Source: a candidate division WWE3 bacterium (GTDB lineage Bacteria; Patescibacteriota; 4484-211; GCA-002791395). From it: DNA of 64,000 nt. The DNA lies in the NCBI GenBank assembly GCA_013335095.1, contig JAAXWF010000002.1:205566-269565 (forward strand), given 5' to 3'. The notes under the pieces are model-generated. The model ran no database searches. It was not told the origin of the DNA and worked only from the letters and a program-made list of their open reading frames with translations. Below are positions 18,534 through 64,000 of the stretch, in pieces. The stretch's first letter is position 1. Each line of letters opens with the position of its first letter. The translations under genes were made by a program, and so were the position numbers.

Positions 18534-18581
18534 CAATTGACCGATTTTCGTGGGCATTCGTGCCCCTACACGGGAGGGATT

Positions 18582-26465: not shown

Positions 26466-27269
26466 CTACAACTCAAACAGCATCCGCTGTCGATTGGGAT
26501 ACTCGGGGTCAAGGCCAGCGTAGTAAAACCCGAGCTGAATATCTGGGTTGTACATGACTGGCAGGACCATAATCCCGAGCGACTGTGCAGCCTCTATAAA
26601 CGCGGTCTCAACGTGTGGCTCGCAGCAAAACTGCACCGCCACCAGGCGTTCACCCGGCTGAATCCAATTGCTTAGCTGACTGGTAATCCCATCCCTTAGA
26701 CTCCGATATGCCGAAGAATTGTCCCGGGCAGAGCCATCCACCACTTTGATATAAAGATCGGTGTAATCACCTTCGGCATCGTGACGTAGATGGGGATCGG
26801 CCGAATACGCCGCGTTGACCATCATCCGCCGAGGCAAGGCAGGGATAAGACCGACACCATCTCGAATATGGATAGTTGATGCAAGCTGCATCTCTATCAT
26901 CCGAGAAAGCACCCGGACAGCTTCATTAACATCGGTGGTGAGATCAACAACCTGCTCACCGATTAAGAAGTACCTCGCAGAAAGCCAAGGCAGTTCTTCC
27001 CCGACGATACTGTTGATTGCCGACCTCATTCGATCACCGAAATCGGCCGAGACCGACTCAGTGAAAGCAAGGGAGGTAATAACGCCATCGTGCCTGGCCA
27101 GCTCCATCTGGAATGCTGGGAAATCAGACAATCGTGACAGCCGAAAGACCACTCCATATGCATCATTGAAGAGGCCAAGGCGAGTAGCCCCAGCTTCAAC
27201 AAAGTGAGCATCGACAAAGCCCCAATTTAGAGGCTTCCGCAGAGAACACATAGCCTGGATGATAACCAT
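26466..27269 (-). CDS. hypothetical protein (GC-rich, approx 56%)
   Basis: Long ORF. The opposite-strand ORF is R/S-rich. No recognisable domain. Confidence 0.35.
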   Translation of the reverse strand: MVIIQAMCSLRKPLNWGFVDAHFVEAGATRLGLFNDAYGVVFRLSRLSDFPAFQMELARHDGVITSLAFTESVSADFGDRMRSAINSIVGEELPWLSARYFLIGEQVVDLTTDVNEAVRVLSRMIEMQLASTIHIRDGVGLIPALPRRMMVNAAYSADPHLRHDAEGDYTDLYIKVVDGSARDNSSAYRSLRDGITSQLSNWIQPGERLVAVQFCCEPHVETAFIEAAQSLGIMVLPVMYNPDIQLGFYYAGLDPEYPNRQRMLFEL

Positions 27270-41000: not shown

Positions 41001-41126
41001 CAATGAGAAGACATCTTGATTTGTGGGTAATGTTGCAACACCTGTTAAAAATAAGGAGACCCCAACTAAGAAAAACGCAGCGGCTGTTATTCCCCAATGT
41101 TTTTTTGTACGTATTGTATTTCGCAT
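38010..41126 (-). CDS. secreted multi-domain CAZyme: clan GH-A glycoside hydrolase + dockerin repeats + CBM-like module + C-terminal SGNH/GDSL esterase
   Basis: Signal peptide. YWELGNELDY (NE acid/base motif). DINRDGAIDVFDLGILSANY and DINKDGSINVYDLGILIGVY dockerin pair. Approx 130-aa beta module. PT linker. KVMPLGDSVTEG (GDS block I) and DDVHPTESAH (DxxH block V). Confidence 0.65.
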   Translation of the reverse strand: MRNTIRTKKHWGITAAAFFLVGVSLFLTGVATLPTNQDVFSLLNRKDRASAQSIISLTVDPSVQVNQFNDSMRGVSFVNWDHNWGRPFVGKIPGLTQVMRQIKPGLVRYAGGLVSNDVGWDRTTQKRGAVEWRDSLGNTYTYHYGTDEMEDLNAFADAIQADVMIQVNIAEENPSMWADMVKYTNKERGWNFKYWELGNELDYASEQNVTAQESGRLAATYQQAMRSVDSTIGIRGPAIAYSTVQAGPNTSARIINPFIPEMLSATRNAGQDLNGLTWHWYQRCNNDSGINGITAYSLGANVAREDWRNPEYRNFAQIYPKWIESDVLNSYPTTLQGVTELNFDACDYDSVLNGNHLTALWFADVLGRLAYNGVDFVTMYEGYATQGLSMVYATDDPPSRVALRPTYYTYLMYAKYFGDRMVKSSSSNEAQVSIWASTDAKDPGKLKLMVTNMTASNQSTSINLGSFNASGGQLYQMTSSNPTDLSSISNTESAPTTINGIKLVSDTIDTSVGQIKPTSLAVSGNQFSYTFPAWSATSIVLSSATGGTVPTSAPTVTPIRTTPTGIPATPTPISDPLIADINRDGAIDVFDLGILSANYNRRTSDDPANLQLSRSDINKDGSINVYDLGILIGVYENHPNTSSRSQIVYNDTLGTGFTDSSWGSTNNYSNTTPVRSGKSISSTFFDPWAAINFKYAAGLDVSSYNLLRFWIHGGTSGNQALQLYFYDDVNTPYQRYQLPLLKANEWMLIEVPFSNLGQPSKINGILLQSAIEKSQPTFFVDDISLVGGPLTGPTPTPTRAPTVTPLPTATPIPTNRITPTITPSIVPTVPAGSGSLKVMPLGDSVTEGVNGGYRNGVYTSLKSAGYSVDMVGSRYDQYTRVADKDHQGTPGYNTGNIADEMTDRMNTYRPDVVLLMAGVNDFAWWFTDNVSNVVNGTFSEIIDRIYAVNPNAIIVVGSITPMKGANAQGTDRDSLGTQYNQLIQAKVAQYKASGKRIGFADIYHSITINDLYDDVHPTESAHEKIAQTWINALMPLLR

Positions 41127-45536: not shown

Positions 45537-45965
45537 ATGATGACTCAACCAATACTACCAACAAAGCAACGGTTACAACCACATACACCACGCCGTAAAA
45601 CATCACGTGCGGCAGTCGGATTTGCTTCACCAGCCAGTGATTTCATCGAGCGGAACTTAGACCTAAATGTACTGCTCATAAAGCATCCGGCGGCGACATT
45701 TTTTGTTAGGGTTGAAGGAAATGCTATGGAAGATGCCGGGATTAACGAGGGCGACATCCTCATCGTTGATCGATCAACAAAGCCATCGACCGATCAAGTA
45801 GTCATTGCCGCACTCAATGGTGAACTAGTTGTACGAACAATGAAAACGACTTCTAACGGGATTTTATTAGTCGCAAATAAAAGCCGACGACCAACAATCC
45901 ATCTCTCCGACCAAGACCAGTTTGAAGTATGGGGTACGGTGACCTCTGTTGTTCATCGCGTTTAA
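45537..45965 (+). CDS. umuD: UmuD-like S24 LexA-family autopeptidase (TLS polymerase V accessory subunit)
   Basis: AAVGFASPASDFIERNLDLNVLLIKHPAATFFVRVEGNAMEDAGINEGDILIVDRS...VVIAALNGELVVRTMK aligns with E. coli UmuD, including the A-G cleavage site, Ser (GNAM) and Lys. Confidence 0.8.
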   Translation: MMTQPILPTKQRLQPHTPRRKTSRAAVGFASPASDFIERNLDLNVLLIKHPAATFFVRVEGNAMEDAGINEGDILIVDRSTKPSTDQVVIAALNGELVVRTMKTTSNGILLVANKSRRPTIHLSDQDQFEVWGTVTSVVHRV

Positions 45966-47250
45966 ATCCATGAAAAAACCGATCTTTGCGGTAATAGATT
46001 GTAATAACTTTTTTGTTTCATGCGAGAGGGTATTTAATCCGAGCTTATGGAACAAGCCGGTACTAGTCCTTTCAAATAATGATGGATGTATCGTATCTCG
46101 GTCCAACGAAGTCAAAGCATTAGGAATACCGATGGGGGCACCATTATTTGAACATACACATGTCGTCAAACAACATCAGGTAACCGTTTTTTCGGCAAAC
46201 TTTCTTTTATACGGAGATATGTCTCAGCGGGTTATTTCAATCATCTCGATGTTTGCGCCTCAAATTGAGGTCTATTCAATCGATGAAGCATTTATTTGCC
46301 TCGACGAGATACCTGATCAAAGTTTTCAAGAATATGGAGAAACTATTCGGAATACAATTTACCAATGGACAGGGATACCGGTATCCGTCGGGATAGGCCC
46401 AACAAAAACGCTGGCCAAAGCTGCATCGGAATTAGCCAAAAAGGGAGCTGGGCACAATAATGTTTTAACACTTCTAGAGGAAAGTACTCAATCAGATCTA
46501 CTCTCAAAACTTGAAGTAGGGGATGTTTGGGGGATCGGGCGGAAATGGTCACAAACACTTCAGCGTCATGGCATTTATACTGCTCAGCAATTACGCCAAA
46601 CAAATGATCGATGGGTTCGGAAACAATTAGGAATCGTTGGATTACGTACGGCCTTGGAGCTTCAGGGAATTGTGTGTCTTAGATTAGAACCAGAACTACG
46701 TCCACGCAAAGGGATCATCAGCTCGCGCTCATTTGGAAGGCCGGTGTCCGATATCAAAGAAATGAAAGAGGCTGTTTCACAATATGCCTCACGTGCATCT
46801 GAAAAATTAAGGGAGCAGAATTCCATCGCAGCAACAGTAAGTGTCTACATCACCACAAATCGATTTAATAATAATGACCCGCAATATTCCAACAGCATTA
46901 CCATTCCGTTGCCAATACCAACCGATTACACCCCCGAAATTATTCGCCATGCTCTCACCGGACTTACTCGCATATTTCGCCCGGGATATCGGTATAAAAA
47001 AGCAGTTGTGGGACTCCAGCACATCACCTCATCCGACCTGATTCAGTTAAATCTTTTTACCAAATCACCAAATATTTCAAAACGAACCCAGATTATGTCC
47101 TGCGTCGATACCATTAATCAGGCGTGGGGTGATCATATTATTCACAGTGCTGCAGCTGGCATTAAAAGGGACTGGAAGATGAAGCAAGATCAACGATCAC
47201 CTCGCTATACCACACATTGGGAGGAGCTACCCGTAGTTAAGGCGCACTAG
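45949..47250 (+). CDS. umuC: Y-family DNA polymerase UmuC
   Basis: FAVIDCNNFFVSCERVFNPSLWNKPVLVLSNNDGCIVSRS and C-terminal WKMKQDQRSPRYTT match E. coli UmuC almost block for block. Overlaps umuD by 17 nt. Confidence 0.85.
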   Translation: MFIAFKSMKKPIFAVIDCNNFFVSCERVFNPSLWNKPVLVLSNNDGCIVSRSNEVKALGIPMGAPLFEHTHVVKQHQVTVFSANFLLYGDMSQRVISIISMFAPQIEVYSIDEAFICLDEIPDQSFQEYGETIRNTIYQWTGIPVSVGIGPTKTLAKAASELAKKGAGHNNVLTLLEESTQSDLLSKLEVGDVWGIGRKWSQTLQRHGIYTAQQLRQTNDRWVRKQLGIVGLRTALELQGIVCLRLEPELRPRKGIISSRSFGRPVSDIKEMKEAVSQYASRASEKLREQNSIAATVSVYITTNRFNNNDPQYSNSITIPLPIPTDYTPEIIRHALTGLTRIFRPGYRYKKAVVGLQHITSSDLIQLNLFTKSPNISKRTQIMSCVDTINQAWGDHIIHSAAAGIKRDWKMKQDQRSPRYTTHWEELPVVKAH

Positions 47251-47358: not shown

Positions 47359-47913
47359 GTGATCTGGATGATCACAGACGCTTCGAGTTCCAGGCTCTGT
47401 CTGGCGACACGCATGGAGGAAGATGAGCCCGCATCGATCTGGATACCGAGGAAGCTGATGCTTGAGTTGCGGTTGGATCTGTTGATCCTTTACCATTCAA
47501 GCATAGCGTTTAGTAAGGCCCAAATGTCCGCACTTCGACAAGTAAAACACGGACAGGTAATCTATCTTGACGGGGCTATCCCTATAACCCCTCAAGAAAC
47601 ACGACGGCTCCAAATAGTATGGAGACACGTTCGTGATGCCGAAATACTATGGCAGAAGACATTTCGCATGGTAGAGCGGCAGATTATCAATCCCAGCTCA
47701 ATGGATGCGACGTCTGAAGAAATCGAATATCATACCTTCAGATATCTTTCCATGGGGGCGGTAAAACTCAGGAGGGCCAAGGCTCGGCTTAATCGAGTAA
47801 TCCGCACACTTGAGTCAGGACGGTTGTCGGCAACTCAAGTACGCAATATCCGCAAACACGATTTTCAGGTCGCGCTTTGGATAGCGTACTTACAGGCAGG
47901 ATGCGATCAATGA
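47359..47913 (+). CDS. hypothetical protein (GC approx 50%)
   Basis: ORF with RBS AAAGGAGGTGATC 5 nt upstream. No recognisable domain. Confidence 0.35.
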   Translation: MIWMITDASSSRLCLATRMEEDEPASIWIPRKLMLELRLDLLILYHSSIAFSKAQMSALRQVKHGQVIYLDGAIPITPQETRRLQIVWRHVRDAEILWQKTFRMVERQIINPSSMDATSEEIEYHTFRYLSMGAVKLRRAKARLNRVIRTLESGRLSATQVRNIRKHDFQVALWIAYLQAGCDQ

Positions 47914-48037
47914 ACACATCAGGGCAACATCCGGCGCGGGTTCCCTACATCTAACCGCCGTCATGTAAACATTCATGGCGGCATTTTTATTTGAATCATT
48001 GCCAGAAAAGTTGGTTTGTGCTAATACATATAAATAT

Positions 48038-48511
48038 ATGGAGAGTAAATTATATCGATCCAGAACCAATAGAATCATTGCCGGGGTAGCGAGCGGATTA
48101 GCTCAGTATTTCAACATCGATCCAATATTAGTTCGATTATTTTTTGTTGCCGCGATGTTTGGTGGTGGGTCAGGATTTTGGATTTATATTATCTTATGGA
48201 TAATTGTCCCTGAAGAACCATACGTGCTGCCACAAGAAAACAAGAACCAGACTCAAACCGACGCAGAAGTCACAGCACCGACCACAACCGATACAAGCAC
48301 AACGTCAACTACATCTACCGAAGTAGTAAGACCAACACTAATTAAAAATCCATCCGACCGAGGAAATGGATTTGGCCTAATACTCATTATCGTAGGATTA
48401 TTGTTCTTAGCCCAAAATACTATTCCCAATTTTCATATTGGACAATTATGGCCAATCATTTTGATTGCAATTGGATTATCATTTATCCTTAACAGCAATA
48501 CACGATCATGA
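48038..48511 (+). CDS. PspC-domain membrane protein
   Basis: From internal ATG: MESKLYRSRTNRIIAGVASGLAQYFNIDPILVRLFFVAAMFGGGSGFWIYIILWIIVPEEP is the canonical PspC domain. Followed by a Thr-rich linker and a second TM. Confidence 0.65.
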   Translation: MESKLYRSRTNRIIAGVASGLAQYFNIDPILVRLFFVAAMFGGGSGFWIYIILWIIVPEEPYVLPQENKNQTQTDAEVTAPTTTDTSTTSTTSTEVVRPTLIKNPSDRGNGFGLILIIVGLLFLAQNTIPNFHIGQLWPIILIAIGLSFILNSNTRS

Positions 48512-49404
48512 AAAGTAATAATATTGTCATTGGCGGAATACTCATTGTCGTAGGCATTTTGGTGCTCGCCTCCAATTTAGACATTTTTCATCTTAACTGG
48601 GAGATAGTCAGCCGCTTATGGCCAGCGATAATTCTATTTATAGGCATTCGTTCGTTTTTCCCGAATGCCTACGGACTCTTAATATCCCTGTTATTAACCA
48701 CGATCATCGTTGTCGGTGTCGGCTATGTAGCAACAGTAACCGGGCAACTTGATCCACGTGATTTCCTCACCACCACCCAAACAGGCAATCATCAACAATT
48801 TACCGTAGAAAATAATGAGTCAATACAAACCGCATCATTAAAGATTGAAAGCGGAGCAGGCGATATCTCGCTGTCATCAGGAACAGACACATTAATGACC
48901 GCAGAGGCAACATCCACGATTGGTGCTTATACGCTGGATCAGGACCTCACCACCACAAATGCCGATCTTCGATTGCATATTGATAATCCCAACATACAGC
49001 TTGGTCCTCAAAACCATACATTAGATGTAAAACTCAACTCAAATCCAGCATGGAGAATCGATGCAAATATTGGAGCAGCCCAAGGACGGTTTGATTTTAG
49101 CGACCTTCAGATAGAGCAACTAACACTTAAATCTGGCGCAACAGACGTGAATCTACGACTCGGAAGTATCGCAAAAGAGGCTCAAGTCACAATAGAAACC
49201 GGTGCATCATCAACCGATATTGAAGTCCCTCAAATAGCTGGGGTTCAAATCACGACCGACACGGGATTAACCGATAACGAATTTAATGGTTTTACACAGG
49301 TTAATGAAAAAACCTATCAATCCGATAATTTTGAATCCGCAGAAAAGAAAATCTTTATTCATATAAAAGCTGGCATGTCCTCAATTACGGTCAATCGGTA
49401 TTAA
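48508..49404 (+). CDS. LiaF-like / DUF4097-type beta-strand repeat protein with N-terminal TM pair
   Basis: Two N-terminal TMs then repetitive beta-rich segments. Start overlaps the PspC stop (ATGA). The PspC-LiaF pairing is a common envelope-stress arrangement. Confidence 0.4.
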   Translation: MKSNNIVIGGILIVVGILVLASNLDIFHLNWEIVSRLWPAIILFIGIRSFFPNAYGLLISLLLTTIIVVGVGYVATVTGQLDPRDFLTTTQTGNHQQFTVENNESIQTASLKIESGAGDISLSSGTDTLMTAEATSTIGAYTLDQDLTTTNADLRLHIDNPNIQLGPQNHTLDVKLNSNPAWRIDANIGAAQGRFDFSDLQIEQLTLKSGATDVNLRLGSIAKEAQVTIETGASSTDIEVPQIAGVQITTDTGLTDNEFNGFTQVNEKTYQSDNFESAEKKIFIHIKAGMSSITVNRY

Positions 49405-49559
49405 TCTTTTTTACCATTACAGATAGATGTATACTATGTTTTTGCTGACGAGCCTGCGTTGGTAGAGAAAGGAGTCGAATCCGACAAAAAGTGGAATTCG
49501 AGTTTCGAATACCTGACCTGCCAGTGTTGGCAAGTAGGTACAGCCAAGGAGGTTTCGCT

Positions 49560-50045
49560 ATGAGGTCGGTAGCAATGCCTGGATACCACGAATCATCAAT
49601 TCGTCGTTTCCATGCTTCTGCATGGGGAATCGCGATCGTGGCGTTCCTCATAAGCCCGTATGGTCCATTGGGATGGTTCTGGCGGCCCGCCGTTGAACTT
49701 CCCATTAATGGATTTATGGCCAGCTTGGCCTACGTGCTGATGCTGATTGTGAGGGTCATCTGTTTTGGGTACGCGGTGTCTTTTCTTCTGTTTAAATGGA
49801 AAAAGCTCCCCGCCCTACCGTCCCTCAGCCTTGCGGCAACACGTCTATTCGTAGCAATAACGGCACTATTGACCGCAAGCTGGTGGGTGACATCCTCAAT
49901 CAGCGAGGTAATGAGACTCAGCGGTTTAGGCAAAAGTATCTTCTTCGACGGGGTGTTTCAACTCCTCGCCATGGGGTACGGCCTGTTCCTGGTTTTCGTG
50001 ATCATACCGAAGATCGGGAGTGCCAATAGCGACACCAGTGCCTAA
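49560..50045 (+). CDS. integral membrane protein, 4 TM (hypothetical; GC-rich approx 57%)
   Basis: Start chosen at ATG 49560 with a perfect AGGAGG RBS 7 nt upstream. The ORF-track start 49491 lacks an RBS. Confidence 0.4.
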   Translation: MRSVAMPGYHESSIRRFHASAWGIAIVAFLISPYGPLGWFWRPAVELPINGFMASLAYVLMLIVRVICFGYAVSFLLFKWKKLPALPSLSLAATRLFVAITALLTASWWVTSSISEVMRLSGLGKSIFFDGVFQLLAMGYGLFLVFVIIPKIGSANSDTSA

Positions 50046-51462: not shown

Positions 51463-52155
51463 CTAACGCATTAATTTCAATGAACGGGTTATCTGGTCTA
51501 AAATAGTCAAGTTTGCATCAATGTTCGTTCCTATATAGGTAATTTGATATTGAGTCATATTATTTACCGTTCCAAATCCAGGCGAATTTGGTTCAACATA
51601 CTCAACGTAATAGGTTTCATCTGTATTGGTCACATAGTAGCGTCTTTTTTGTACCGTAAATCCTAAAATATTTTGCTGCCCATCAATCGAAGATCCGCAC
51701 ACATTAGAATCTGGTGCGGGACTTGATTCAGGCCAGGAACAGATTGACGGATCATCAACGTACGCGTTGTAACCTGTTAGTAACGGGGACACATAAAATA
51801 CCCACATCGCACCACCGTTAGAGATGGTGACCTTTGCCGTGTTGCAACAAGATTCGCTTTGATAATCTTCGACATTATTTGCCTGATCAATATTTAATTC
51901 CCATTCCGGTGGATATTGGACGGAATAACCGTGAACATTATTACGATATGTTTTCCATGTTTGTAGATTAATTGGGGTTGGACTAACGGCCATTGTTGGT
52001 GTTGGACTGACCATGTCATCATCTTCGTTCTCAATATTTAATGCATCGCGGGTAATAAAAAAGACCGCCGCCACAAACGTTAAAATGGCAAAGCCAATCG
52101 CCGCAAACTCAACAGTGGTGAATCCTCGATTTTTTTGAAATATCATCATACTCAT
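51463..52155 (-). CDS. type IV pilin-like protein
   Basis: MIFQKNRGFTTVEFAAIGFAILTFVAAVFFI is a prepilin motif (G|F..E). Confidence 0.5.
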   Translation of the reverse strand: MSMMIFQKNRGFTTVEFAAIGFAILTFVAAVFFITRDALNIENEDDDMVSPTPTMAVSPTPINLQTWKTYRNNVHGYSVQYPPEWELNIDQANNVEDYQSESCCNTAKVTISNGGAMWVFYVSPLLTGYNAYVDDPSICSWPESSPAPDSNVCGSSIDGQQNILGFTVQKRRYYVTNTDETYYVEYVEPNSPGFGTVNNMTQYQITYIGTNIDANLTILDQITRSLKLMR

Positions 52156-53950: not shown

Positions 53951-55414
53951 TTACAGTATATGATGCTCGGTTAAATATTTGCGGATCCGGTTTTTAGTAC
54001 TATTCATCTTGGCGATACGCAGCCAGTCCGAACTTGGGTATTTTCGAGTAGGTGAAATAATAATCTCGCAGACATCATTGTTCTGGAGCTCATAATCAAT
54101 CCCAACCATCTTGCCGTTAACTTTCGCCCCGCTCAAATGGTGACCGATCTCGGTATGCACTTGATAGGCAAAATCAATCGGCGTGGCGCCTTTGGGCATG
54201 TCTTTTACATCGCCCTTTGGAGTAAACACAAATACACGGTCTCCAAATAAATCTAATTTTAAAGCCGCCTCAAACTCGTGATCTTCTAAAATTTCGGATT
54301 GCCATTCGACCAAATCTCGCAGCCATTTAATCCGATCTTCCGGCGCTTCGGTCATACTATGCCCAAGCTCTTTGTAAATAACGTGAGCAGCGGGACCAAA
54401 TTCGTTGTATTGATGCATCTCTCGGGTTCTGATCTGGACTTCGGCATGATCATTTCGCTCAGGCACAAAAACTGACGTATGCACCGACCGATATCCATTT
54501 GGCTTTGGGCGGGCGATATAATCATCAAAACCCTTTGGGTTCGAACGCCAGCGCTGATGAACATATCCAAGCGCGGTATAACATTCTTCTAACGAACCAA
54601 CAATGATGCGAAACGCTTGTTTATCCTGCAATCGATCTAAATAATCCTCAATCGTTTCACCGGCAGTATGTTTACGGGAAAATTTCCGATAGATACTGTA
54701 ATAATTTTTAATCCGTCCATATACATAGGATTCAATGGAGTTAATATCCATCAAGGTGTGCAGTTCATCCGTCATGTAATGAATAAACTGCTCACGCTCA
54801 TCGTACGTTTTAACAAAATAATTATCCATTTGCTGATACACATCAGGATACATACGTTTAAACGCACCATCTTCAAGCTTACGTTTTAAATGGAAAATAC
54901 CAAGACGCTCGGCGAGAGGAGCATAAATCTCCAAAATTTTTTCCAAAGTCTGATGCTGAACTTCTATCGGCAGCGCATCAACCGTTTCTAGATTATGTAA
55001 TTTATCGGCTAGACGAATCAGTATCACCCGAATATCTTTGGCACTGGCCAAGAATAGCTTACGCAAATTTTCCCGATAGGCGAGAACACCTTTATGTGTG
55101 GCGATCCTTTTTAACCCGGTCACACCATCAACAAGCTCAGCCACCGTTTCGCCGAACTCTTCCTCTAAATCTTTTTTAGTGATATCAGTATGTTCGAGGA
55201 CATCATGGAGTAGCGCTGCACTTAGCGTGTACGAATCGACTTTAATATCTGCAAGATAGTTTGCCACTGCCACCGGATGATCAATAAAGCTTGAACCGAC
55301 TTTACGTTTTTGTCCGACATGCGCCGCATCAGCAAACGCATACGCCCGACGAATCAAATCGATCTTAGCGGTGGGATGGTATTTCAGTACTTTTTCAATA
55401 AGAGGATCAATCAT
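53951..55414 (-). CDS. rel: short RelA/SpoT homolog (HD hydrolase + synthetase + TGS; no ACT domain)
   Basis: HD motif HDVLEDT. Synthetase block RIKNYYSIYRKF...YRSVHTSV. TGS-like VFVFTPKGDVKDMPKGATPIDFAYQVHTEIG. Start set at internal ATG 55414 (MIDPLIEKVLKY). Confidence 0.8.
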   Translation of the reverse strand: MIDPLIEKVLKYHPTAKIDLIRRAYAFADAAHVGQKRKVGSSFIDHPVAVANYLADIKVDSYTLSAALLHDVLEHTDITKKDLEEEFGETVAELVDGVTGLKRIATHKGVLAYRENLRKLFLASAKDIRVILIRLADKLHNLETVDALPIEVQHQTLEKILEIYAPLAERLGIFHLKRKLEDGAFKRMYPDVYQQMDNYFVKTYDEREQFIHYMTDELHTLMDINSIESYVYGRIKNYYSIYRKFSRKHTAGETIEDYLDRLQDKQAFRIIVGSLEECYTALGYVHQRWRSNPKGFDDYIARPKPNGYRSVHTSVFVPERNDHAEVQIRTREMHQYNEFGPAAHVIYKELGHSMTEAPEDRIKWLRDLVEWQSEILEDHEFEAALKLDLFGDRVFVFTPKGDVKDMPKGATPIDFAYQVHTEIGHHLSGAKVNGKMVGIDYELQNNDVCEIIISPTRKYPSSDWLRIAKMNSTKNRIRKYLTEHHIL

Positions 55415-55524
55415 GGGTTCAATTATACGATCGAGCGCTACTACACAGAGCGACACATCGACTCTCAGCAAAATATAAGTAAAGATTTGTACTATATGTC
55501 CGCATAATATGTATAATAAATCGT

Positions 55525-56415
55525 ATGAACATATATGATCAGATCAGTCAAAATAAAACCCGAAGTATTGTAATTATCACCGTATTCATAGTAGTCGTGG
55601 CCGGACTCGGCTTTATATTTGGAAAAGCACTAGACTATGGATATACGCTATTTATTTTTGCAACGGTCTTTGCTATCTGTAGCTCTTTCTTTAGCTATTA
55701 TTTCTCCGATAAGTTAGCACTATCAGTGAGTGGCGCTCGGGAGGTCAGTACACAGACAGAACAACGACTTTTTAGAATGGTAGAAAATCTATCCATTGGC
55801 GCAGGACTCACACCCATGCCCAAAGTCTATGTAATCGAAGATACCGCGATAAACGCATTTGCCACAGGAAGGGATCCCAAACATGCTTCAGTAGCTGTAA
55901 CACGGGGAGCGCTGCAAAAACTTGATGATATGGAACTAGAAGGTGTTATCGCCCATGAGTTATCGCATATTCGTAATTATGATATTTTGACAATGACGAT
56001 CGCGGTCGTCTTAGTTGGAATAATCGCCCTTGTGAGCGAATGGTTTATGCGATCATTGTGGTTTAGCGGAGATGATAATCGACGCGAAGGTCGGAGTGGG
56101 GGATTGATGATAATCTTTGCCATAATCGGAGCAATTTTAGCCCCGCTGATTGGTCAATTATTGCAAATGGCGCTATCTCGACAACGTGAATATCTTGCCG
56201 ATGCCAGTGGTGCGCTTTTAACCCGCTACCCAGACGGGTTAGCCCAAGCTTTGGAAAAAATTCAAGCTGATGGTCAACCGCTACGAAATGCAAACACCGC
56301 AACAGCTCACCTATATATAGCCAATCCATTTGAAGGTGTTAATGAAAAATTGTTTAACCTCTTTTCGACTCATCCGCCTATTGAAGAGCGGATTAAACGA
56401 CTGCGTGCTATGTAA
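55525..56415 (+). CDS. htpX: zinc metalloprotease HtpX (M48)
   Basis: Two N-terminal TMs, HELSH in VIAHELSHIRN, downstream E (REYLADA), C-terminal TM pair. Confidence 0.85.
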   Translation: MNIYDQISQNKTRSIVIITVFIVVVAGLGFIFGKALDYGYTLFIFATVFAICSSFFSYYFSDKLALSVSGAREVSTQTEQRLFRMVENLSIGAGLTPMPKVYVIEDTAINAFATGRDPKHASVAVTRGALQKLDDMELEGVIAHELSHIRNYDILTMTIAVVLVGIIALVSEWFMRSLWFSGDDNRREGRSGGLMIIFAIIGAILAPLIGQLLQMALSRQREYLADASGALLTRYPDGLAQALEKIQADGQPLRNANTATAHLYIANPFEGVNEKLFNLFSTHPPIEERIKRLRAM

Positions 56416-56469: not shown

Positions 56470-57051
56470 CTACTGTACTTCAGGGATGGTTAGATCCTCG
56501 CTGAAGTGGACTTCAAAGTCCTTCTGAGATGGTGGTGTCCGTGCATCTACCTGCTTGGTAAATATCACCTCGACCACCGAAGATTTCAGGTTAACCGTCC
56601 CTGCGATGGTCATGGTCACCGAGATATCCGTGAGATTGATTGTTTTAGTCGCCGTAAAGCGATATTTATCAGATCCTTCGGATTTCCAGGTCCCACTGAG
56701 TGGATAGAGCTGCAGGTCATAGCGAAGATGCAACGGAGGTTCAAACTCCATTGTTCCATCATCGTAGAACCGCCACGCCGCGTATCCGAACACCCACATG
56801 GCATCATCACTCGCCACGCGAGCATCACCGACTTGGGGATTGGCTGATCCCTCTTGATAGGTCATCTTACTGAAGGTTTCCCGTAAAGGGAGGCCACCTT
56901 CATAGGTGTATAGAATGACCTTAGAAGATGCTGGTTTTGGTGACGAAGGAAGAGGTGTAGATTGGGGAACGATGCCGGCGCACCCACACAAAGCCATTAC
57001 GAATAACCATCCCAGAAGTGGGATTCCGATTAGCCGCATGCGCATTCTCAT
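56470..57051 (-). CDS. putative lipoprotein (GC-rich approx 55%)
   Basis: Signal peptide ending in lipobox-like LCGCAG. Beta-rich mature region. No known domain. Confidence 0.4.
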   Translation of the reverse strand: MRMRMRLIGIPLLGWLFVMALCGCAGIVPQSTPLPSSPKPASSKVILYTYEGGLPLRETFSKMTYQEGSANPQVGDARVASDDAMWVFGYAAWRFYDDGTMEFEPPLHLRYDLQLYPLSGTWKSEGSDKYRFTATKTINLTDISVTMTIAGTVNLKSSVVEVIFTKQVDARTPPSQKDFEVHFSEDLTIPEVQ

Positions 57052-58987: not shown

Positions 58988-59073
58988 ACACAGACAACAG
59001 TATCAACGAATAAGAAAACCACGCCGACACGTTAATACTGATAATAATACACCATGGGAAAAGAAGTGGGGAT

Positions 59074-59104
59074 AAAAAAACCTCCACCATATTTCAGGTG
59101 GAGG
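59074..59104 (-). terminator. rho-independent terminator (CCTCCACC-loop-GGTGGAGG + T7 on minus strand)
   Basis: Perfect 8-bp stem followed by TTTTTTTATCC on the minus strand, directly after paralog cassette 1. Marks the left edge of the high-GC island. Confidence 0.65.
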
Positions 59105-59138
59105 CGATTGACTACACGAACGTTACGTTTTGCAGCCT

Positions 59139-59846
59139 TTATGCAGGCTGGTGATCTACAGACTGTGCAGCCGAAGGGGAAAGAATCCCAAGGACCACCT
59201 GCCGATCTTTGATCATCGGCTCGATGTGATCCCGGTAGAATAACACCACTTGAGGCCCCAGTCCCTCAACAACGGGCGCACCGACAAACGAGTCGATGAT
59301 TTGGTCCCGCTCGACGCGGCTTGCCAACCGGAAATGATTAGGGTCGAGGATCTCGACCGGGCACACCCCGGCAATGCCCTGGTAATCGACCGACCAGAGC
59401 ACCATATGCCCAAGCACCCGCTGCACGACCCCGTGATATCCAAACACCAGGGGGTTGCGGGCGTGCTTATACACGATGACGTCACCGTGCTTCCACTCGA
59501 CGTCAGAGAACCGCATAGATGCCATGGTTACGGCACGGCTGCGCTGATAAAGCTCCTCAGCGCCCCGGGCGAGGTCGATCTTCTGGCGCATCACCATCCG
59601 CGCGTGCCAGCTAGCCGCGAAGCAGCCGACAGAGAACAACGCCATGCCAATAAGATCGAGAGAATCGACCGGGATCCAACCCGGTAGTGGCTCTCGAAGA
59701 AAAACAACGAACACGAAGCTCACCACGAGCCTTACGAGGGCCACGCCCATCGTAAAGTACCCAACAAACCCCCAGACACTGCCGGGACCTTCATCGGACG
59801 AAAGATTGGCATCAGCCATCTCTCCACGGGTAATGGATGTAGACAT
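59139..59846 (-). CDS. paralog 1 of a 2-TM membrane protein family (island cassette), unknown function
   Basis: Starts MSTS after GGAGG-n4-ATG. Two N-terminal TMs. C-terminal domain with W-x-[HND]-G-D-[VI]-[ILV], Y-[HG]-G, LxLW motifs shared with three downstream paralogs. Approx 58% GC. Confidence 0.6.
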   Translation of the reverse strand: MSTSITRGEMADANLSSDEGPGSVWGFVGYFTMGVALVRLVVSFVFVVFLREPLPGWIPVDSLDLIGMALFSVGCFAASWHARMVMRQKIDLARGAEELYQRSRAVTMASMRFSDVEWKHGDVIVYKHARNPLVFGYHGVVQRVLGHMVLWSVDYQGIAGVCPVEILDPNHFRLASRVERDQIIDSFVGAPVVEGLGPQVVLFYRDHIEPMIKDRQVVLGILSPSAAQSVDHQPA

Positions 59847-59893
59847 ACATGTCCTCCAGGATAAAACGGCTAGACCCGATGTCTAGCATTGTA

Positions 59894-59904
59894 GAACAAC
59901 TTAA
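59894..59904 (-). promoter_or_regulatory. extended -10 promoter TCTGGTATAAT for paralog 1 (family-conserved)
   Basis: The same T[CT]TG[AG]TATA[AC]T element recurs approx 45-50 nt upstream of each of the four paralog start codons: 59894-59904, 60716-60725, 61550-61560, 62393-62403. Confidence 0.5.
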
Positions 59905-59998
59905 TTATACCAGACCTATAATAGTTAGAGTTGTATAAAAAATGACCCGCATCTTAATTTGATACGGGTCGATATTACGAGAGTAAGAACAAGGCAGA

Positions 59999-60661
59999 CT
60001 AGGCCTGTGTGAGACTGCATGCACCATCGCTTGGAGTAATTGCTCCAAGCATATAAAAAATCGTTTCATCCATAAATAGCTGATCCAGCGCGTAGCGGGG
60101 CGACTCGGTGCCATAGAGCGTATCAAGCGGCCGATTCACCATCCAGCCTAATATCTGGACTCGCTCGGCTGGAGTTGCTAAACGATAGTCAAAAAAGTGC
60201 CGATCATTCACATCAGTCCAGCTGATGCAACCATTTAGTGCCGGACCCCACAAGAGCAAGATGCCAAAGCGTAGTTCAACGATCCCGTAGTTACCTGGAA
60301 TCCATTGTTCAAAAGGTTCCTTCAACAAGATCACATCACCGTTGGCCCATTCCGGATCGAGTGAAAGATCGTCACCGGGTGTTGTAGTACGTGTTTTATT
60401 ATCACGCATCTCAACCCTGAGGATCACGGTAATCAGTAGGCTAACAAGGCTAACACCAATAGCCATTGCTACTTGTTCCGAACGACGATACTGGAGATCG
60501 ATAATCCACAGTTGGTCAGGCCAATAGATGAGGATTGTTTGACCGATGGTTTTAGCGAAAACCATAACTCCGGCGACAATCATCATGCCGACACTAATGG
60601 CTGATGAAGTCACGACCAGAAAGGTAGAAAAAATCTTCCACAACCGTTGCCCCGAAGACAT
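59999..60661 (-). CDS. paralog 2 of 2-TM family
   Basis: True start ATG 60661 (MSSGQRLWKIF) preceded by AGGAGGAAGACT. The ORF-track TTG start 60703 is probably not used. Own promoter TTGATATACT and own terminator (59944-59970). Confidence 0.6.
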   Translation of the reverse strand: MSSGQRLWKIFSTFLVVTSSAISVGMMIVAGVMVFAKTIGQTILIYWPDQLWIIDLQYRRSEQVAMAIGVSLVSLLITVILRVEMRDNKTRTTTPGDDLSLDPEWANGDVILLKEPFEQWIPGNYGIVELRFGILLLWGPALNGCISWTDVNDRHFFDYRLATPAERVQILGWMVNRPLDTLYGTESPRYALDQLFMDETIFYMLGAITPSDGACSLTQA

Positions 60662-60810
60662 AGTCTTCCTCCTTGAATACATCGCCACTTGCTCACGCCA
60701 CAAAGAGACGCGCCCAGTATATCAAATGTAATAATTTTTATGAGTAAATAGTAAAAACCCGCCACACAGATGTGCAGCGGGTCCAAGTTAGGCGAACAAT
60801 GGTCTTGAAC

Positions 60811-61497
60811 TTACTCGGCCTGTGCAGCCGGCCCCCACAGAGTGGGGTCTTCCTGAGTAGGATACTCCTCGGCTTCACGCTCGCGGAGATACTCGACGTG
60901 CTCGGTCAGCGCCTGGGCGAGGATGGTACGAACAAACAGAGCATCCAGCTCGGATACCCCATCAGCGTTGAATCGCACATCGGGCGCCTTATCGGCCAGC
61001 CAGGTGATGATCTGGTCGTACTCAGCCGGAGTCACCCGACGAAAGGCTTGGGGATTAAGGCTGGGGCAAACCCAGCTGATCTTCCCATCAAGGGTCGGCT
61101 GCCACAGGAGCAGCTTCCCCCATCGGATTTCGGCCATCCCGTAGGCATTAATTGCATACGGGTCCCGAATACCGTCAGCGATGATGATATCACCATCTGA
61201 CCAGCACTCGTCAGCTCGGGGCCGCATGTGAGCCGGATCCTCGCTGATCTGGTCGAGCACCGCGGCGATGTTCCCGCTGATGAGGTGGTGGCTTTTATAG
61301 AACGCTGCCGTTCCTGCCATCGAGAAGATCGCAACGAACAGGGCGTCCCAACCGTCACGCCCAATCAGGTGTCGGCCATGCCCCAGTATGCTAATCAAGA
61401 TCAGCACACCGATGTAGCACAGAGATCCGACAGCCATCAGGCGATGGGCCTCGGTTGACCGATTGTCGAGCTCCTCCTCCGTGAACTTAGAAGACAT
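60811..61497 (-). CDS. paralog 3 of 2-TM family
   Basis: True start ATG 61497 (MSSKFTEEEL) after AGGAGGAAGACA. Motifs WSDGDIII, YGMAEIRWGKLLLWQP. Own promoter TCTGATATAAT and terminator (60752-60782). Confidence 0.6.
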   Translation of the reverse strand: MSSKFTEEELDNRSTEAHRLMAVGSLCYIGVLILISILGHGRHLIGRDGWDALFVAIFSMAGTAAFYKSHHLISGNIAAVLDQISEDPAHMRPRADECWSDGDIIIADGIRDPYAINAYGMAEIRWGKLLLWQPTLDGKISWVCPSLNPQAFRRVTPAEYDQIITWLADKAPDVRFNADGVSELDALFVRTILAQALTEHVEYLREREAEEYPTQEDPTLWGPAAQAE

Positions 61498-61630
61498 TGT
61501 CTTCCTCCTGGCCATACGGCCTCTTCCATTTCGCCACAAAAGCATATTTATTATATCAGACCCATAATATAAAAAGAAGCCCTACTGCATGTGATCTACA
61601 GTAGGGCAAAAAATAAGGCAAAGGCCTTGG

Positions 61631-62338
61631 TTAGTTTGTAGTTATAGTACGACCTTTTAGCAGCTCCCTGAACCAGTCTTCGAGTTTTTCCGGAGCATGA
61701 TAGCGCTCGAGTTCCTCGTTAAGTTGAGGCGCAATATGGGCATGGAAAAACGCTAGATCATCGGGATGAACCTTGGCACCTCCCAACGGGGTTAAAAGTT
61801 TGGTGTTAAACATCCACCCCAAGATCTTGCGGATCTCCCGATCATCGGCCAACCGAAACATCGACGGATCGGCTGAATCAAGAATTGTATAGGTTAGGTG
61901 TCCACCCACCGTTGGTGCCCATAAGCACAATACACCCCGACGGATCATGACCATGCCGTAAAGTCCCGGGACAAAGGCATTGTTGACCCCGTGCCGCACA
62001 AGCACGTCGCCATCGCTCCAGATACTATCGGGCGCACGAGGACCTCGATCAGGCATCGGTGCATCCACAAAGCGTATAGGCTTGAAAGTAGTCGCCGCAT
62101 ACAAATTGACCAAGGCCCAAAGGGCAAAGATCGCCGAATATGCAAGCAAGGTCAACACAATCCCTTCCCAATCCGAGATGTGTGTAGGGGACCAATTCGG
62201 AACCATCCGCGATATCGTCATGATGACGATTAATGCAATTGAAGCACAGACGAGCAAACCACTGCCTGCTAGGGCAATAAAGCCCATCCAGCGCAAGCGA
62301 TGCAGGTCTTCCTGCGAAAGGCTAGGTTCTGAAGACAT
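61631..62338 (-). CDS. paralog 4 of 2-TM family
   Basis: True start ATG 62338 (MSSEPSLSQ) after GGAGGAGATT. Motifs WSDGDVLV, YGMVMIRRGVLCLWAP. Own promoter TTTGATATAAT and terminator (61571-61607). Confidence 0.6.
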   Translation of the reverse strand: MSSEPSLSQEDLHRLRWMGFIALAGSGLLVCASIALIVIMTISRMVPNWSPTHISDWEGIVLTLLAYSAIFALWALVNLYAATTFKPIRFVDAPMPDRGPRAPDSIWSDGDVLVRHGVNNAFVPGLYGMVMIRRGVLCLWAPTVGGHLTYTILDSADPSMFRLADDREIRKILGWMFNTKLLTPLGGAKVHPDDLAFFHAHIAPQLNEELERYHAPEKLEDWFRELLKGRTITTN

Positions 62339-62455
62339 AATCTCCTCCACATGTCCGTTAAAGGACCCTCCGACACCGTTAAAAGCAAAAATATTATATC
62401 AAACCCATAGATGGAAATATCTGGATGTATTTTAGTACACCCAGATTGTTTATAG

Positions 62456-63109
62456 CTACACAAGGCCCAATGCGGCATACCATGCGTCCGAGTCTTCGAA
62501 ACGCCCTGCCGGAATATAGGAGGGAACTAACGCGTGGCCCATGCTTAGGAGTGGTATATAGCGCTTGGTCCAATCGTCGCTATAATTAACCCGCTCCATC
62601 ACCAGAATCAACTTTGTCGACCCTGGTACAATTCGGCCGACCTCACGTAAGGCTGACCGACGTCCGAATTCCAGAACAGCAACAGAATTTGGAAAACATT
62701 CCATTGCCGCGACGAATTGAACTAATTCATTCACATTCACATCGAGCACCGGCACCACCAAGACCCCTTCAGCAGCCTGAAGGTGATCCAAAAGTAGTGC
62801 ATACCGTGCCCAGCAGATACGCGATGAAATCAAGGCGACGCAGATGTGGCAGAATGATGGGCCGATCTCTGCGATCGCCGTATTCACATCGGTATAGCAG
62901 CCCAGGCTCGGGCCTAACTCTTGTAGGGAGATCCATTCCAGACCACCACAACAAGGAAGTCGATCATACCGGACATGTACATCGTCTGAGTCGAGTACGG
63001 CTAAGATAGGACTCGAAAGCACCACTGAGCCCAATCGGTCCAACAGATCATCACAAGGATCAAGAAGAACAACGACCGACGTGTCCGGATACATCGTCAA
63101 AAATGTCAT
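62456..63109 (-). CDS. Cys-rich hypothetical protein in high-GC island (start uncertain)
   Basis: The maximal ORF runs 62456..63577 (373 aa) but its first approx 70 codons overlap the tig start on the opposite strand. An internal Met at 63109 is the first start that avoids tig. Sixteen Cys residues (counted over the full 373-aa ORF). No known domain. The opposite-strand ORF is R-rich (antisense-like). Confidence 0.3.
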   Translation of the reverse strand: MTFLTMYPDTSVVVLLDPCDDLLDRLGSVVLSSPILAVLDSDDVHVRYDRLPCCGGLEWISLQELGPSLGCYTDVNTAIAEIGPSFCHICVALISSRICWARYALLLDHLQAAEGVLVVPVLDVNVNELVQFVAAMECFPNSVAVLEFGRRSALREVGRIVPGSTKLILVMERVNYSDDWTKRYIPLLSMGHALVPSYIPAGRFEDSDAWYAALGLV

Positions 63110-63359
63110 GAGATGATGTATATCCACGTGTGCTGGCAGACAGATAAGACGATGTCCAGATACTTTTTGCCAGATCGACAAAAAGCAATACCACCGACGA
63201 ATCCTTGGAATTGTCGGTAGGACTACGACCACAGTCCGAGACGCTTGGCTCAATGAAAGCCTCCTTACGATTAATCCGCCACAAAAACTGGCACTATCAT
63301 TATAGATTATCCCTGCAGAAGCGGTTGGTAACTCTGTACAACCTGTATATAATGATCGA

Positions 63360-64000
63360 ATGCAAATTAAAGTTGATACCCAAAAGAACGGTACGGTTGT
63401 CATTTCGGCTACCGCATCAGTCGATGAAGCAATAGCAGCTCGAGACCAAGTCGTCGCAAAATATGCTCCACAGATGAAAATCCAAGGATTTCGTCCCGGA
63501 AAAGCACCTAAAGCGTTAATCGAAAAGAGTGTTAAAACAGATAAACTCGCCGAAGAAACACTTTCAATCCTCGCCACCCAAGGTTACAACCAGGCAATTA
63601 TCGAAAATAAATTAAACCCGATTACGCAACCAAGCGTGAGTATTCCCGCCGCAAAAGATGCACAAACCACCGAAGATTCGCTCAAAGTAATTTGGCCAAA
63701 AGCGATCGAAGAGGGGATCGAGATTGAAATTCTTACGTTCATTAACCCCGAAATCTCATTAGAAGGATGGGAAAAGGCCGTAACATCAGCTAAATCTGAA
63801 CCCGCAATCGAAGTAGCAAAAGACATTAAAGAAGCCAAAGAAAAAGGCAAAAAAAATAAAAAAGATTCGGAGAACGTCGAAGAACCCGCACCCGAGTTAA
63901 CCCCAGAGCAGAAAGATCAATATCTCGAAGACAATATTCTCAATGCACTAGTAACCGAAGTTAAATTTGAGCTGCCTGATGCACTGGTACGAGGAGAAAC
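63360..64000 (+). CDS. tig: trigger factor, N-terminal part (3' end outside window)
   Basis: MQIKVDTQKNGTVVISATASVDEAIAARDQVVAKYAPQMKIQGFRPGKAPKALIEKSV carries the ribosome-binding GFRxGxxP signature. Frame read continuously to the window end. In-frame stop at 63303 upstream. Absent from the ORF track only because it has no stop in the window. Confidence 0.8.
   Translation, partial: MQIKVDTQKNGTVVISATASVDEAIAARDQVVAKYAPQMKIQGFRPGKAPKALIEKSVKTDKLAEETLSILATQGYNQAIIENKLNPITQPSVSIPAAKDAQTTEDSLKVIWPKAIEEGIEIEILTFINPEISLEGWEKAVTSAKSEPAIEVAKDIKEAKEKGKKNKKDSENVEEPAPELTPEQKDQYLEDNILNALVTEVKFELPDALVRGE

What the first reader, a model, noticed from the sequence alone, without database searches (positions are those of the whole stretch)
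59070..63300. High-GC (approx 58%) 4.2-kb island with four tandem, individually promoted and terminated, highly diverged paralog cassettes encoding 2-TM proteins
Between the aminopeptidase gene and tig the composition jumps from about 40% to about 58% GC. The island holds four co-directional genes of 220-235 aa, each with:
- a conserved extended -10 (T[CT]TG[AG]TATA[AC]T)
- a 40-50 nt leader (TTTGTGGCG in two)
- a GGAGG RBS
- an identical opening ATG-TCT-(TCN/ACA) (MSS/MST)
- two TM helices
- a C-terminal domain sharing W-x-[NDH]-G-D-[VI]-[ILV], N/G-Y-G-[MI], R-x-G-x-L-x-L-W-x-P, [TA]-P-[AD]-E-[RY]-x-Q-I-[LI]
- its own perfect hairpin terminator
The regulatory parts are near-identical while the proteins are only about 25-30% identical. 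This pattern of conserved expression signals around rapidly diversifying ORFs is typical of immunity-protein arrays, superinfection-exclusion or receptor-variation loci. A further Cys-rich ORF (62456-63577) in the island overlaps the tig start. No integrase or repeat flanks are visible.
Basis: seen in the sequence. Interest (0 to 1): 0.75.

Follow-up and report, generated by a model that had tools for sequence, protein, structure and literature searches.

The report
Orphan membrane-protein gene array in WWE3
A candidate-phylum (WWE3) bacterium carries, between two housekeeping genes, five separately switched genes: four are very divergent copies of a previously undescribed membrane-anchored protein. 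The arrangement is real and is shared with a relative, but its function is unknown and nothing supports the proposed toxin-immunity or phage role.

Summary
The core observation holds. On the minus strand, between tig and an M29 aminopeptidase gene, lie four tandem paralogs of 220-235 aa that are 23-30% identical. Each has an extended -10 promoter, a 45-50 nt leader, a GGAGG site, an ATG-TCT start and a strong hairpin terminator.

Three details are wrong:
- GC is 51% over the stretch. Only two paralogs reach 58-59%.
- The Cys-rich ORF is a fifth real gene (62456-63253, 265 aa, TTG start) that does not overlap tig.
- The promoter type is the genome's general one, since it also precedes tRNA genes.

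The locus is not a mis-assembly or a recent island. An independent assembly is identical, and a second, related genome has the same module with three paralogs at the same position.

The family has no match in Pfam, NCBIfam, PADLOC, PHROGs, PDB, phages or plasmids. Among 1.84 billion representative proteins, only that relative and one soluble two-domain variant were found.

The proteins are predicted N-in/C-in hairpins holding a new small beta-barrel plus helices domain in the cytoplasm, with no conserved catalytic residues.

Best reading: a vertically kept, fast-evolving accessory module of membrane-tethered binding proteins. An immunity or exclusion role is possible but untested. Receptor variation is unlikely.

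The parts
63299..63304 (-). -10 hexamer TATAAT of the fifth gene (orf5); no TG extension
63277..63285 (-). leader motif TTTGTGGCG of orf5, shared with the P2 and P3 leaders
   Evidence: 5 matches in the window against 0.65 expected; 3 are in leaders of this locus and the other 2 lie inside coding regions
62456..63253 (-). orf5: 265-aa soluble, acidic, Cys-rich (10 Cys) orphan protein. TTG start with AAGGAGG 6 nt upstream. Annotated HGA91_04035.
   Evidence: The C-terminal 43 aa are 53% identical to the in-frame end of the gene upstream of the array in the relative.
62421..62444 (-). weak hairpin after orf5 (9 pairs including one G-U, poor T-run); read-through into P1 is possible
   Evidence: read from the sequence; not listed by the scan
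62393..62401 (-). extended -10 (TGATATAAT) of P1, within the block CTATGGGTTTGATATAAT
61631..62338 (-). paralog P1, 235 aa (HGA91_04030): 2-TM hairpin plus C-terminal barrel/helix domain
61579..61607 (-). intrinsic terminator of P1 (11-bp stem plus T-run)
61550..61558 (-). extended -10 (TGATATAAT) of P2
61532..61540 (-). leader motif TTTGTGGCG of P2
60811..61497 (-). paralog P2, 228 aa (HGA91_04025); GC 58.8%, GC3 0.69
60755..60784 (-). intrinsic terminator of P2 (13-bp stem)
60716..60724 (-). extended -10 (TGATATACT) of P3
60696..60704 (-). leader motif TTTGTGGCG of P3
59999..60661 (-). paralog P3, 220 aa (identical to P0005)
59944..59970 (-). intrinsic terminator of P3 (10-bp stem)
59904..59912 (-). 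extended -10 (TGGTATAAT) of P4
59139..59846 (-). paralog P4, 235 aa (HGA91_04015); GC 57.8%, GC3 0.67; ortholog of P0008 in the relative
59080..59105 (-). intrinsic terminator of P4 (9-bp stem plus T7)

Best explanation
This is a chromosomal, vertically retained accessory module of a candidate division WWE3 (CPR) bacterium. One soluble Cys-rich orphan gene (orf5) is followed by a tandem array of four very divergent paralogs. The related genome has three.

SHOWN
- Every gene is its own transcription unit by sequence signals. Each paralog has the genome's standard extended -10 promoter in its strongest form, a structured leader of about 45-50 nt, a consensus Shine-Dalgarno site and an intrinsic terminator.
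- The family has no detectable relative in any curated library.
- The module is syntenic in a second genome.

INFERRED
- Each paralog is an N-in/C-in two-helix membrane hairpin that holds a roughly 110-130 aa domain at the cytoplasmic face of the membrane. The domain is a five-stranded SH3/Tudor-like small barrel followed by helices.
- Only structural residues are conserved in this domain (aromatic-x-x-G-[DE]-V, G, L-W, F-R-x-A-T-P-x-E-R-x-x-I-L). No catalytic-type residues are conserved. It is therefore most likely a binding or adaptor domain, not an enzyme.
- The paralogs would tether or sequester a cytoplasmic partner (protein or nucleic acid) at the membrane. orf5 may be a co-functioning partner, and the divergent copies may give different specificities.
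- The narrow distribution, fast divergence, copy-number change and autonomous expression fit a conflict-related or niche-specific role, such as exclusion or immunity acting at the inner membrane. This last step is a guess.
For: ANATOMY
- ORFs, sequence and paralog alignment.
- Promoters, leaders, SD sites and terminators.

ORGANISM AND ANNOTATION
- Candidate division WWE3, locus tags HGA91_04015-04035.

NOT AN ARTEFACT
- A Logan contig from SRR11449211 is collinear with the window, with 0 mismatches in 12,370 nt.

SYNTENIC MODULE IN A SECOND GENOME
- Overlapping contigs L005, L004 and L002 give orf5-like end -> P0007 -> P0006 -> P0008 -> M29.
- Each gene there again has a TGnTAnAAT promoter, GGAGG and a hairpin terminator.
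- M29 is 72% identical between the genomes, the orf5 C-terminus 53%, and the paralogs 23-32%.
- Only P4/P0008 keep recognisable N-terminal orthology.

ORPHAN STATUS
- No hit in Pfam, NCBIfam, PADLOC or PHROGs.
- HMMER against 1.84e9 representatives finds only 3 homologs with the same architecture plus one soluble variant.
- No hit by PDB sequence profile.

STRUCTURE
- The C-domain model has pLDDT 82.6 and pTM 0.76, with five strands then helices.

TOPOLOGY
- K+R counts favour N-in/C-in in all 7 proteins.
- Soluble proteins made of two tandem copies of the domain exist on L007 without signal peptides, which fits a cytoplasmic domain.

LINK BETWEEN orf5 AND THE ARRAY
- orf5 is co-conserved next to the array in both genomes.
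- It shares the leader motif TTTGTGGCG with P2 and P3 although the proteins are unrelated.
Against: - No experiment or known homolog gives a function.
- Topology is inferred from charge counts only.
- orf5 could not be modelled, so its role as a partner is conjecture.
- Fast divergence (about 30% against 72% for M29) is within the range of weakly constrained accessory proteins and does not by itself show diversifying selection.
- The elevated GC3 (0.49-0.69 against a host mean of 0.385), also seen in the relative (0.50-0.63 against 0.44 for M29), is not explained by vertical inheritance with normal amelioration.
Confidence: 0.45

Rival explanations
1. Immunity-protein array. The paralogs would be membrane immunity proteins against a polymorphic toxin or bacteriocin, kept in several specificities. 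orf5 or an unseen gene would be the toxin.
For: Tandem, highly diverged paralogs with a copy-number difference between the two genomes (4 against 3). The proteins are membrane anchored. An uncharacterised gene, orf5, always sits upstream.
Against: - No toxin, secretion or bacteriocin-processing gene lies among the called genes on the M29 side or up to tig. The region beyond tig was not available.
- orf5 has no signal peptide, no toxin-domain hit and no homologs.
- No known Imm family or PADLOC hit.
- Each gene is separately promoted and terminated rather than riding behind a toxin gene.
- The family is missing from all other sampled genomes, which is unusual for polymorphic-toxin systems.
Confidence: 0.12
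2. Prophage remnant. The cassettes would be moron-like superinfection-exclusion genes that block phage DNA entry at the inner membrane.
For: The promoter-ORF-terminator units with GC differing from their neighbours match the definition of morons (PMC3594210). Small inner-membrane proteins are typical exclusion factors (own knowledge: T4 Imm, P22 SieA, HK97 gp15). CPR bacteria rarely have CRISPR (abstract of PMC6509639, listed).
Against: - No phage gene, integrase, att repeat or tRNA lies at the borders.
- No PHROG hit, no match in BFVD predicted viral structures and no tblastn hit in 50,697 phage records.
- The viral contigs pattern scan returned 0 matches.
- The module is at the same chromosomal position in a relative whose M29 is only 72% identical, so it is old and chromosomal.
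- Similar GC-rich autonomous orphan genes are scattered through the window.
Confidence: 0.1
3. Weakly constrained lineage-specific membrane proteins with an ordinary structural or housekeeping role, for example envelope or division accessory factors. They would have no conflict function, and their divergence would reflect relaxed constraint.
For: The chromosomal context is housekeeping (tig, pepS, htpX-like M48, relA). The genes use the standard host promoter form. There is no microdiversity between runs. The divergence ratio against M29 is compatible with fast neutral drift.
Against: Four or three paralogs retained as intact ORFs with conserved motifs and strong signals argue for selection on each copy. 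The distribution is too narrow for a housekeeping role in WWE3. The GC3 shift is unexplained.
Confidence: 0.25
4. Recently acquired foreign island or assembly chimera.
For: GC is 51% (up to 59%) against 42.5% for the rest of the window, with sharp steps at the borders.
Against: An independent assembly is identical over 12,370 nt. The same module lies next to the M29 gene in a second genome. The spacers have host-like GC and host-type promoters. No mobility genes or repeats are present.
Confidence: 0.03

Closest known systems
Phage 'morons' (e.g. HK97 gene 15; Cumby, Davidson and Maxwell 2012, PMC3594210)
   Same: Single ORFs flanked by their own promoter and factor-independent terminator, with GC content differing from neighbouring genes. 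The HK97 gp15 example is an inner-membrane exclusion protein.
   Different: The locus is not in a phage or prophage and has no phage homologs. The units are tandem paralogs. The module is syntenic in a related genome rather than an 'extra' insertion seen in only one genome.
Tandem immunity-gene arrays of polymorphic toxin / bacteriocin loci (own knowledge: Zhang, Aravind and colleagues 2012)
   Same: Runs of highly diverged paralogs whose copy number varies between relatives.
   Different: No adjacent toxin and no known immunity domain. Every gene has its own promoter and terminator. The family is confined to one small lineage.
Mycoplasma Vlp/Vsa-type multigene families (own knowledge)
   Same: Reduced genomes with tandem divergent paralogs that keep a conserved promoter/5' region and conserved first codons.
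   Different: No lipoprotein signal peptide. No homopolymer tract or invertible element in the promoters. The conserved domain is predicted to be cytoplasmic, not surface exposed.
SH3/Tudor-like small beta-barrel domains (HspQ/YccV, RimP, PcrA/Mfd Tudor-like domains, FeoA, NdhS)

Membership tests
Phage moron / prophage accessory locus | Own promoter and own terminator around a single ORF | tested here: met
   An extended -10 element and a hairpin plus T-run flank each of the four paralogs. These are sequence signals only, with no transcript data.
Phage moron / prophage accessory locus | GC content differs from surrounding genes | tested here: met
   GC3 is 0.49-0.69 against 0.32-0.36 for M29 and tig.
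Phage moron / prophage accessory locus | Located inside a phage or prophage genome, and absent from the same position in related genomes | tested here: not met
   The neighbours are tig, M29, M48 and RelA. There are no PHROG, phage or BFVD matches. The module is present at the same position in the relative.
Polymorphic-toxin / bacteriocin immunity array | Adjacent toxin or bacteriocin gene with a recognisable toxin or secretion domain | tested here: not met
   No such domain is found in orf5 or the neighbours. orf5 remains unassigned, so a novel toxin cannot be fully excluded.
Polymorphic-toxin / bacteriocin immunity array | Membership of a known immunity protein family | tested here: not met
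   No Pfam, NCBIfam or PADLOC hit for any paralog.
Polymorphic-toxin / bacteriocin immunity array | Protection against a cognate toxin | not testable with these tools
   Needs co-expression or competition assays.
Known anti-phage defence systems (PADLOC-DB 2.0) | HMM match to a component of a described system | tested here: not met
   0 relevant hits for the 5 proteins and for 11 domain copies.
Phase-variable surface multigene family (Vlp/Vsa type) | Surface-exposed variable domain with a signal or lipoprotein peptide | tested here: not met
   No signal peptide. Predicted N-in/C-in topology with an 11-28 aa outer loop.
Phase-variable surface multigene family (Vlp/Vsa type) | Switch element (homopolymer/SSR or invertible promoter) | tested here: not met
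   No inverted repeats flank the promoters, and no homopolymer or SSR run longer than about 7 nt is visible in the promoter or leader sequences.
Integron gene cassettes | attC recombination sites and an IntI integrase | tested here: not met
   The hairpins are perfect GC-rich stems followed by T-runs, which marks them as terminators. No integrase or shared repeat is present.
Diversity-generating retroelement target | Template/variable repeat pair and a nearby reverse transcriptase | tested here: not met
   No repeat of 35 nt or more links the locus to anything in the window. No RT was seen among the neighbours examined.
SH3/Tudor-like small barrel superfold | Five-stranded small barrel with a significant structural match | tested here: inconclusive

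The most novel reading that the evidence does not exclude
GC-rich orphan genes in this CPR genome would behave as integrase-free, self-sufficient promoter-ORF-terminator cassettes ('chromosomal morons'). These include the five-gene module and at least seven other single genes in the window. They would be gained, duplicated and replaced at fixed chromosomal slots. The 2-TM/small-barrel family together with orf5 would form a previously unknown inner-membrane exclusion or immunity system specific to these episymbionts.
Probability: 0.1. Interest if true: 0.7.

Novelty: new variant of a known kind. Interest (0 to 1): 0.4.

Why it matters
CPR bacteria have tiny genomes in which most lineage-specific genes are unannotated, and little is known about how they defend themselves or interact with hosts. 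This locus is a clean, well-delimited case. It defines a new protein domain with a confident model and no structural neighbour. Its membrane-tethered paralogs and a co-conserved partner gene are kept at one chromosomal slot in two genomes while diverging to about 25-30% identity. It also gives eight aligned examples of a CPR promoter, leader, RBS and terminator, which is useful for annotating expression signals in these organisms. The persistent GC3 excess of orphan genes in a 42% GC genome is an unexplained compositional pattern worth testing genome-wide. Without a function, however, it remains one more orphan paralog family, so its importance is moderate.

Tried and rejected
1. Word-indexed searches of 5.8e9 proteins with the paralog profile, with orf5 and with a 7-sequence profile returned only self hits and P0008.
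3. Two genome-contig scans baited with the M29 peptidase, one with the single protein and one with a 2-sequence alignment, found no relative. Synteny in other WWE3 genomes therefore could not be examined.
4. A degenerate 102-nt DNA pattern for the W-x-x-G-D-V...G-x-L-x-L-W core gave one chance hit in metagenome contigs (L006, no family ORF) and none in viral contigs.
7. PDB sequence searches with the domain profile and with orf5 gave nothing.
8. Rfam on the locus at E<=1 gave no RNA family.
9. Leader folding showed no common significant structure (z from -2.1 to +1.1). The only recurring element is a small hairpin that encloses the start codon.
10. A search for DGR-like or other long repeats found none involving the locus.
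11. dN/dS was not attempted because synonymous sites are saturated at 23-32% protein identity.
12. A paper search for the SRA run numbers found nothing.

Full report
**What is there**

All genes of the finding lie on the minus strand. Reading from tig towards the M29 aminopeptidase gene there are five genes:
- orf5, 62456-63253, 265 aa, TTG start.
- P1, 61631-62338, 235 aa.
- P2, 60811-61497, 228 aa.
- P3, 59999-60661, 220 aa.
- P4, 59139-59846, 235 aa.

The window comes from a candidate division WWE3 (CPR) metagenome-assembled genome. The genes are annotated as hypothetical proteins HGA91_04015 to HGA91_04035 on a 358,632-bp contig.

The four paralogs are 23-30% identical to each other. A profile of the C-domain picks out exactly these four ORFs in a six-frame translation of the window, at E 1e-36 to 1e-42, and nothing else.

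**Expression signals**

The pattern TGRTATAMT occurs five times in the 64-kb window, and four of those precede the paralogs.
- The gap from the end of the -10 element to the ATG is 54, 52, 54 and 57 nt.
- A GGAGG site sits 6-7 nt before each start.
- A 9-13 bp GC-rich hairpin with a T-run follows each paralog. The region has 14 terminator-like sites against 4.4 +/- 1.9 in shuffles.

orf5 has a plain TATAAT, an AAGGAGG site and only a weak hairpin after it.

TTTGTGGCG occurs five times in the window against 0.65 expected. Three copies lie at the start of the leaders of orf5, P2 and P3. The other two are inside coding sequence.

The conserved ATG-TCT-TC has a nucleotide-level explanation. In P2 and P3 it pairs with the spacer GAAGAC to form a 6-7 bp hairpin whose loop holds the start codon, and a similar hairpin occurs in one gene of the relative.

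Outside the -10, SD and start elements the upstream regions are not alike. Mean column identity over the eight aligned regions is 51%.

The TGnTAnAAT form also precedes tRNA-Phe, tRNA-Leu and several other genes. The cassettes therefore use the genome's ordinary promoter type in a near-consensus, presumably strong, version.

**Corrections to the observation**

- GC over 59070-63300 is 51.3% against 42.5% for the rest of the window. Only P4 (57.8%) and P2 (58.8%) are near 58%. P1, P3 and orf5 are 48-51% and the spacers 37-44%.
- GC3 is 0.67-0.69 for P4 and P2 and 0.49-0.54 for the others. Other ORFs in the window have a mean of 0.385 (sd 0.096).
- The 'Cys-rich ORF 62456-63577' is only the mechanical stop-to-stop ORF. 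The real gene starts at 63253 and ends 106 nt before the tig ATG at 63360.
- Elevated GC is not unique to this stretch. At least nine other ORFs in the window have GC 0.49-0.56. Seven of the nine have no Pfam hit, and most have their own -10 element, GGAGG site and terminator.

**Not an artefact and not a recent island**

A Logan assembly of run SRR11449211 contains the same gene order and matches the window with 0 mismatches over 12,370 nt.

More importantly, the only homologs with the same architecture found anywhere come from three short contigs of runs SRR21121619, SRR21121620 and SRR21121627. These contigs overlap into one locus: the end of an orf5-like gene, then P0007, P0006, P0008, then an M29 peptidase.

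How the two genomes compare:
- The M29 protein is 72% identical to the window's.
- The orf5 C-terminus is 53% identical over 43 aa.
- The paralogs are 24-32% identical to each other and to the window's copies.
- Only P4/P0008, the copy next to M29 in both genomes, keep recognisable N-terminal similarity.
- Each gene in the relative again has TGnTAnAAT, GGAGG and a hairpin terminator.
- The first paralog after orf5 has the identical 18-nt block CTATGGGTTTGATATAAT in both genomes, although the two proteins are 27% identical.
- The relative's paralogs are also GC-enriched, with GC3 of 0.50-0.63 against 0.44 for its M29.

The module is therefore old, chromosomal and vertically kept, with a copy-number difference of four against three.

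**The proteins**

No Pfam, NCBIfam, PADLOC or PHROG family matches any of the five proteins or eleven domain copies.

HMMER against 1.84 billion representatives found three real relatives plus P0012. P0012 lies on a 1.8-kb contig (L007) next to a second gene. Both genes encode soluble proteins made of two tandem copies of the domain.

tblastn against phage and plasmid collections found nothing.

The full-length AF2 model (pLDDT 66) shows two long helices followed by a small beta domain. A model of the C-domain alone, built from 9 sequences, reaches pLDDT 82.6 and pTM 0.76. It has five strands followed by three helices.
- BFVD gives nothing below E 0.1.
- The conserved columns are G, D/E, V, W, L, F, A and I, which are structural rather than catalytic residues.
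- Counts of K+R put the N-terminus and the segment after TM2 inside in all seven proteins, leaving an 11-28 aa outer loop.

orf5 is acidic, has 10 Cys including a C-x-x-C, and has no hydrophobic helix above threshold. It has no homolog.

**Interpretation**

The evidence supports a lineage-restricted accessory module of membrane-tethered, cytoplasm-facing binding proteins with a co-conserved soluble partner. Each gene is expressed on its own from a strong standard promoter.

The function is inferred, not shown. Narrow distribution, fast divergence, copy-number change and autonomy are the usual marks of conflict-related genes. An inner-membrane exclusion or immunity role therefore remains possible. 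Receptor variation is unlikely given the topology.

The units formally resemble phage morons, which have their own promoter, their own terminator and deviant GC (PMC3594210). They fail the defining requirement of lying in a phage.

The persistent GC3 excess in both genomes is not explained by any of these readings.

**Verdict**

This is a real, well-delimited orphan paralog array with a new domain. It is moderately interesting and its function is unknown. Interest is 0.4. I file it as a new variant of a known kind: tandem, fast-evolving, autonomously expressed accessory membrane-protein genes.

Noticed in passing
window 9604-10332(+), 11851-12339(+), 18537-19187(+), 22423-23136(+), 24156-25643(+), 26466-27269(-), 47359-47913(+), 49491-50045(+), 56470-57051(-): GC-rich ORFs (GC 0.49-0.56, GC3 0.50-0.65) are scattered through a genome of about 42% GC. 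Seven of the nine have no Pfam hit. Most have their own TAnAAT -10 element, GGAGG site and downstream hairpin terminator. None is related to the 2-TM family or to orf5. This suggests a genome-wide class of GC-rich autonomous orphan genes.
   Followed up: partly
window 63325-63362 (+): tig seems to be nearly leaderless. A TTGGTA-17-TATAAT promoter ends 6 nt before the tig ATG (63360), and no Shine-Dalgarno sequence is present. It lies back-to-back with the orf5 promoter.
   Followed up: no
window 61495-61512 and 60659-60676 (-); L004 around 64-82: A small hairpin, GAAGAC-nAU-GUCUUC, encloses the start codon of P2 and P3, with GGAGGC-CAU-GUCUUC in the relative's P0006. It may modulate translation, and it explains why ATG-TCT-TC is conserved at the DNA level.
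   Followed up: partly
L007 95-1679 (Logan SRR22388139): Two adjacent, overlapping genes (255 and 279 aa) each encode two tandem soluble copies of the same barrel/helix domain without TM helices. They sit behind a TGCTACACT -10-like element and an AAAGGAGG site. This is a second architecture of the family in another organism.
   Followed up: partly
window 51463-52155 (-): The N-terminus MSMMIFQKNRGFTTVEFAAIGFAIL looks like a type IV prepilin leader with a G-F-T-x-x-E motif. No Pfam hit was obtained at E<=0.001.
   Followed up: no
window 45949-47250 (+), 47975-49404 (+): A Y-family (UmuC/DinB-like, IMS) polymerase gene and a PspC-domain / LiaF-like membrane stress pair lie upstream. Further along come RelA/SpoT (53951-55471) and an M48 peptidase (55525-56415).
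   Followed up: no
window 1176-1331, 19263-19418, 39231-39389: A 51-nt coding repeat recurs in pairs spaced 105-108 nt apart inside three large ORFs (1044-1532, 19239-21362, 38010-41126). This probably reflects a shared repeated protein module.
   Followed up: no
window 59250-59687 (+), 60772-61200 (+), 61980-62435 (+), 62614-63009 (+): Long antisense ORFs (131-151 aa) run opposite the paralogs and orf5. They are most likely by-products of the stop-poor, GC-rich coding sequence rather than genes.
   Followed up: no
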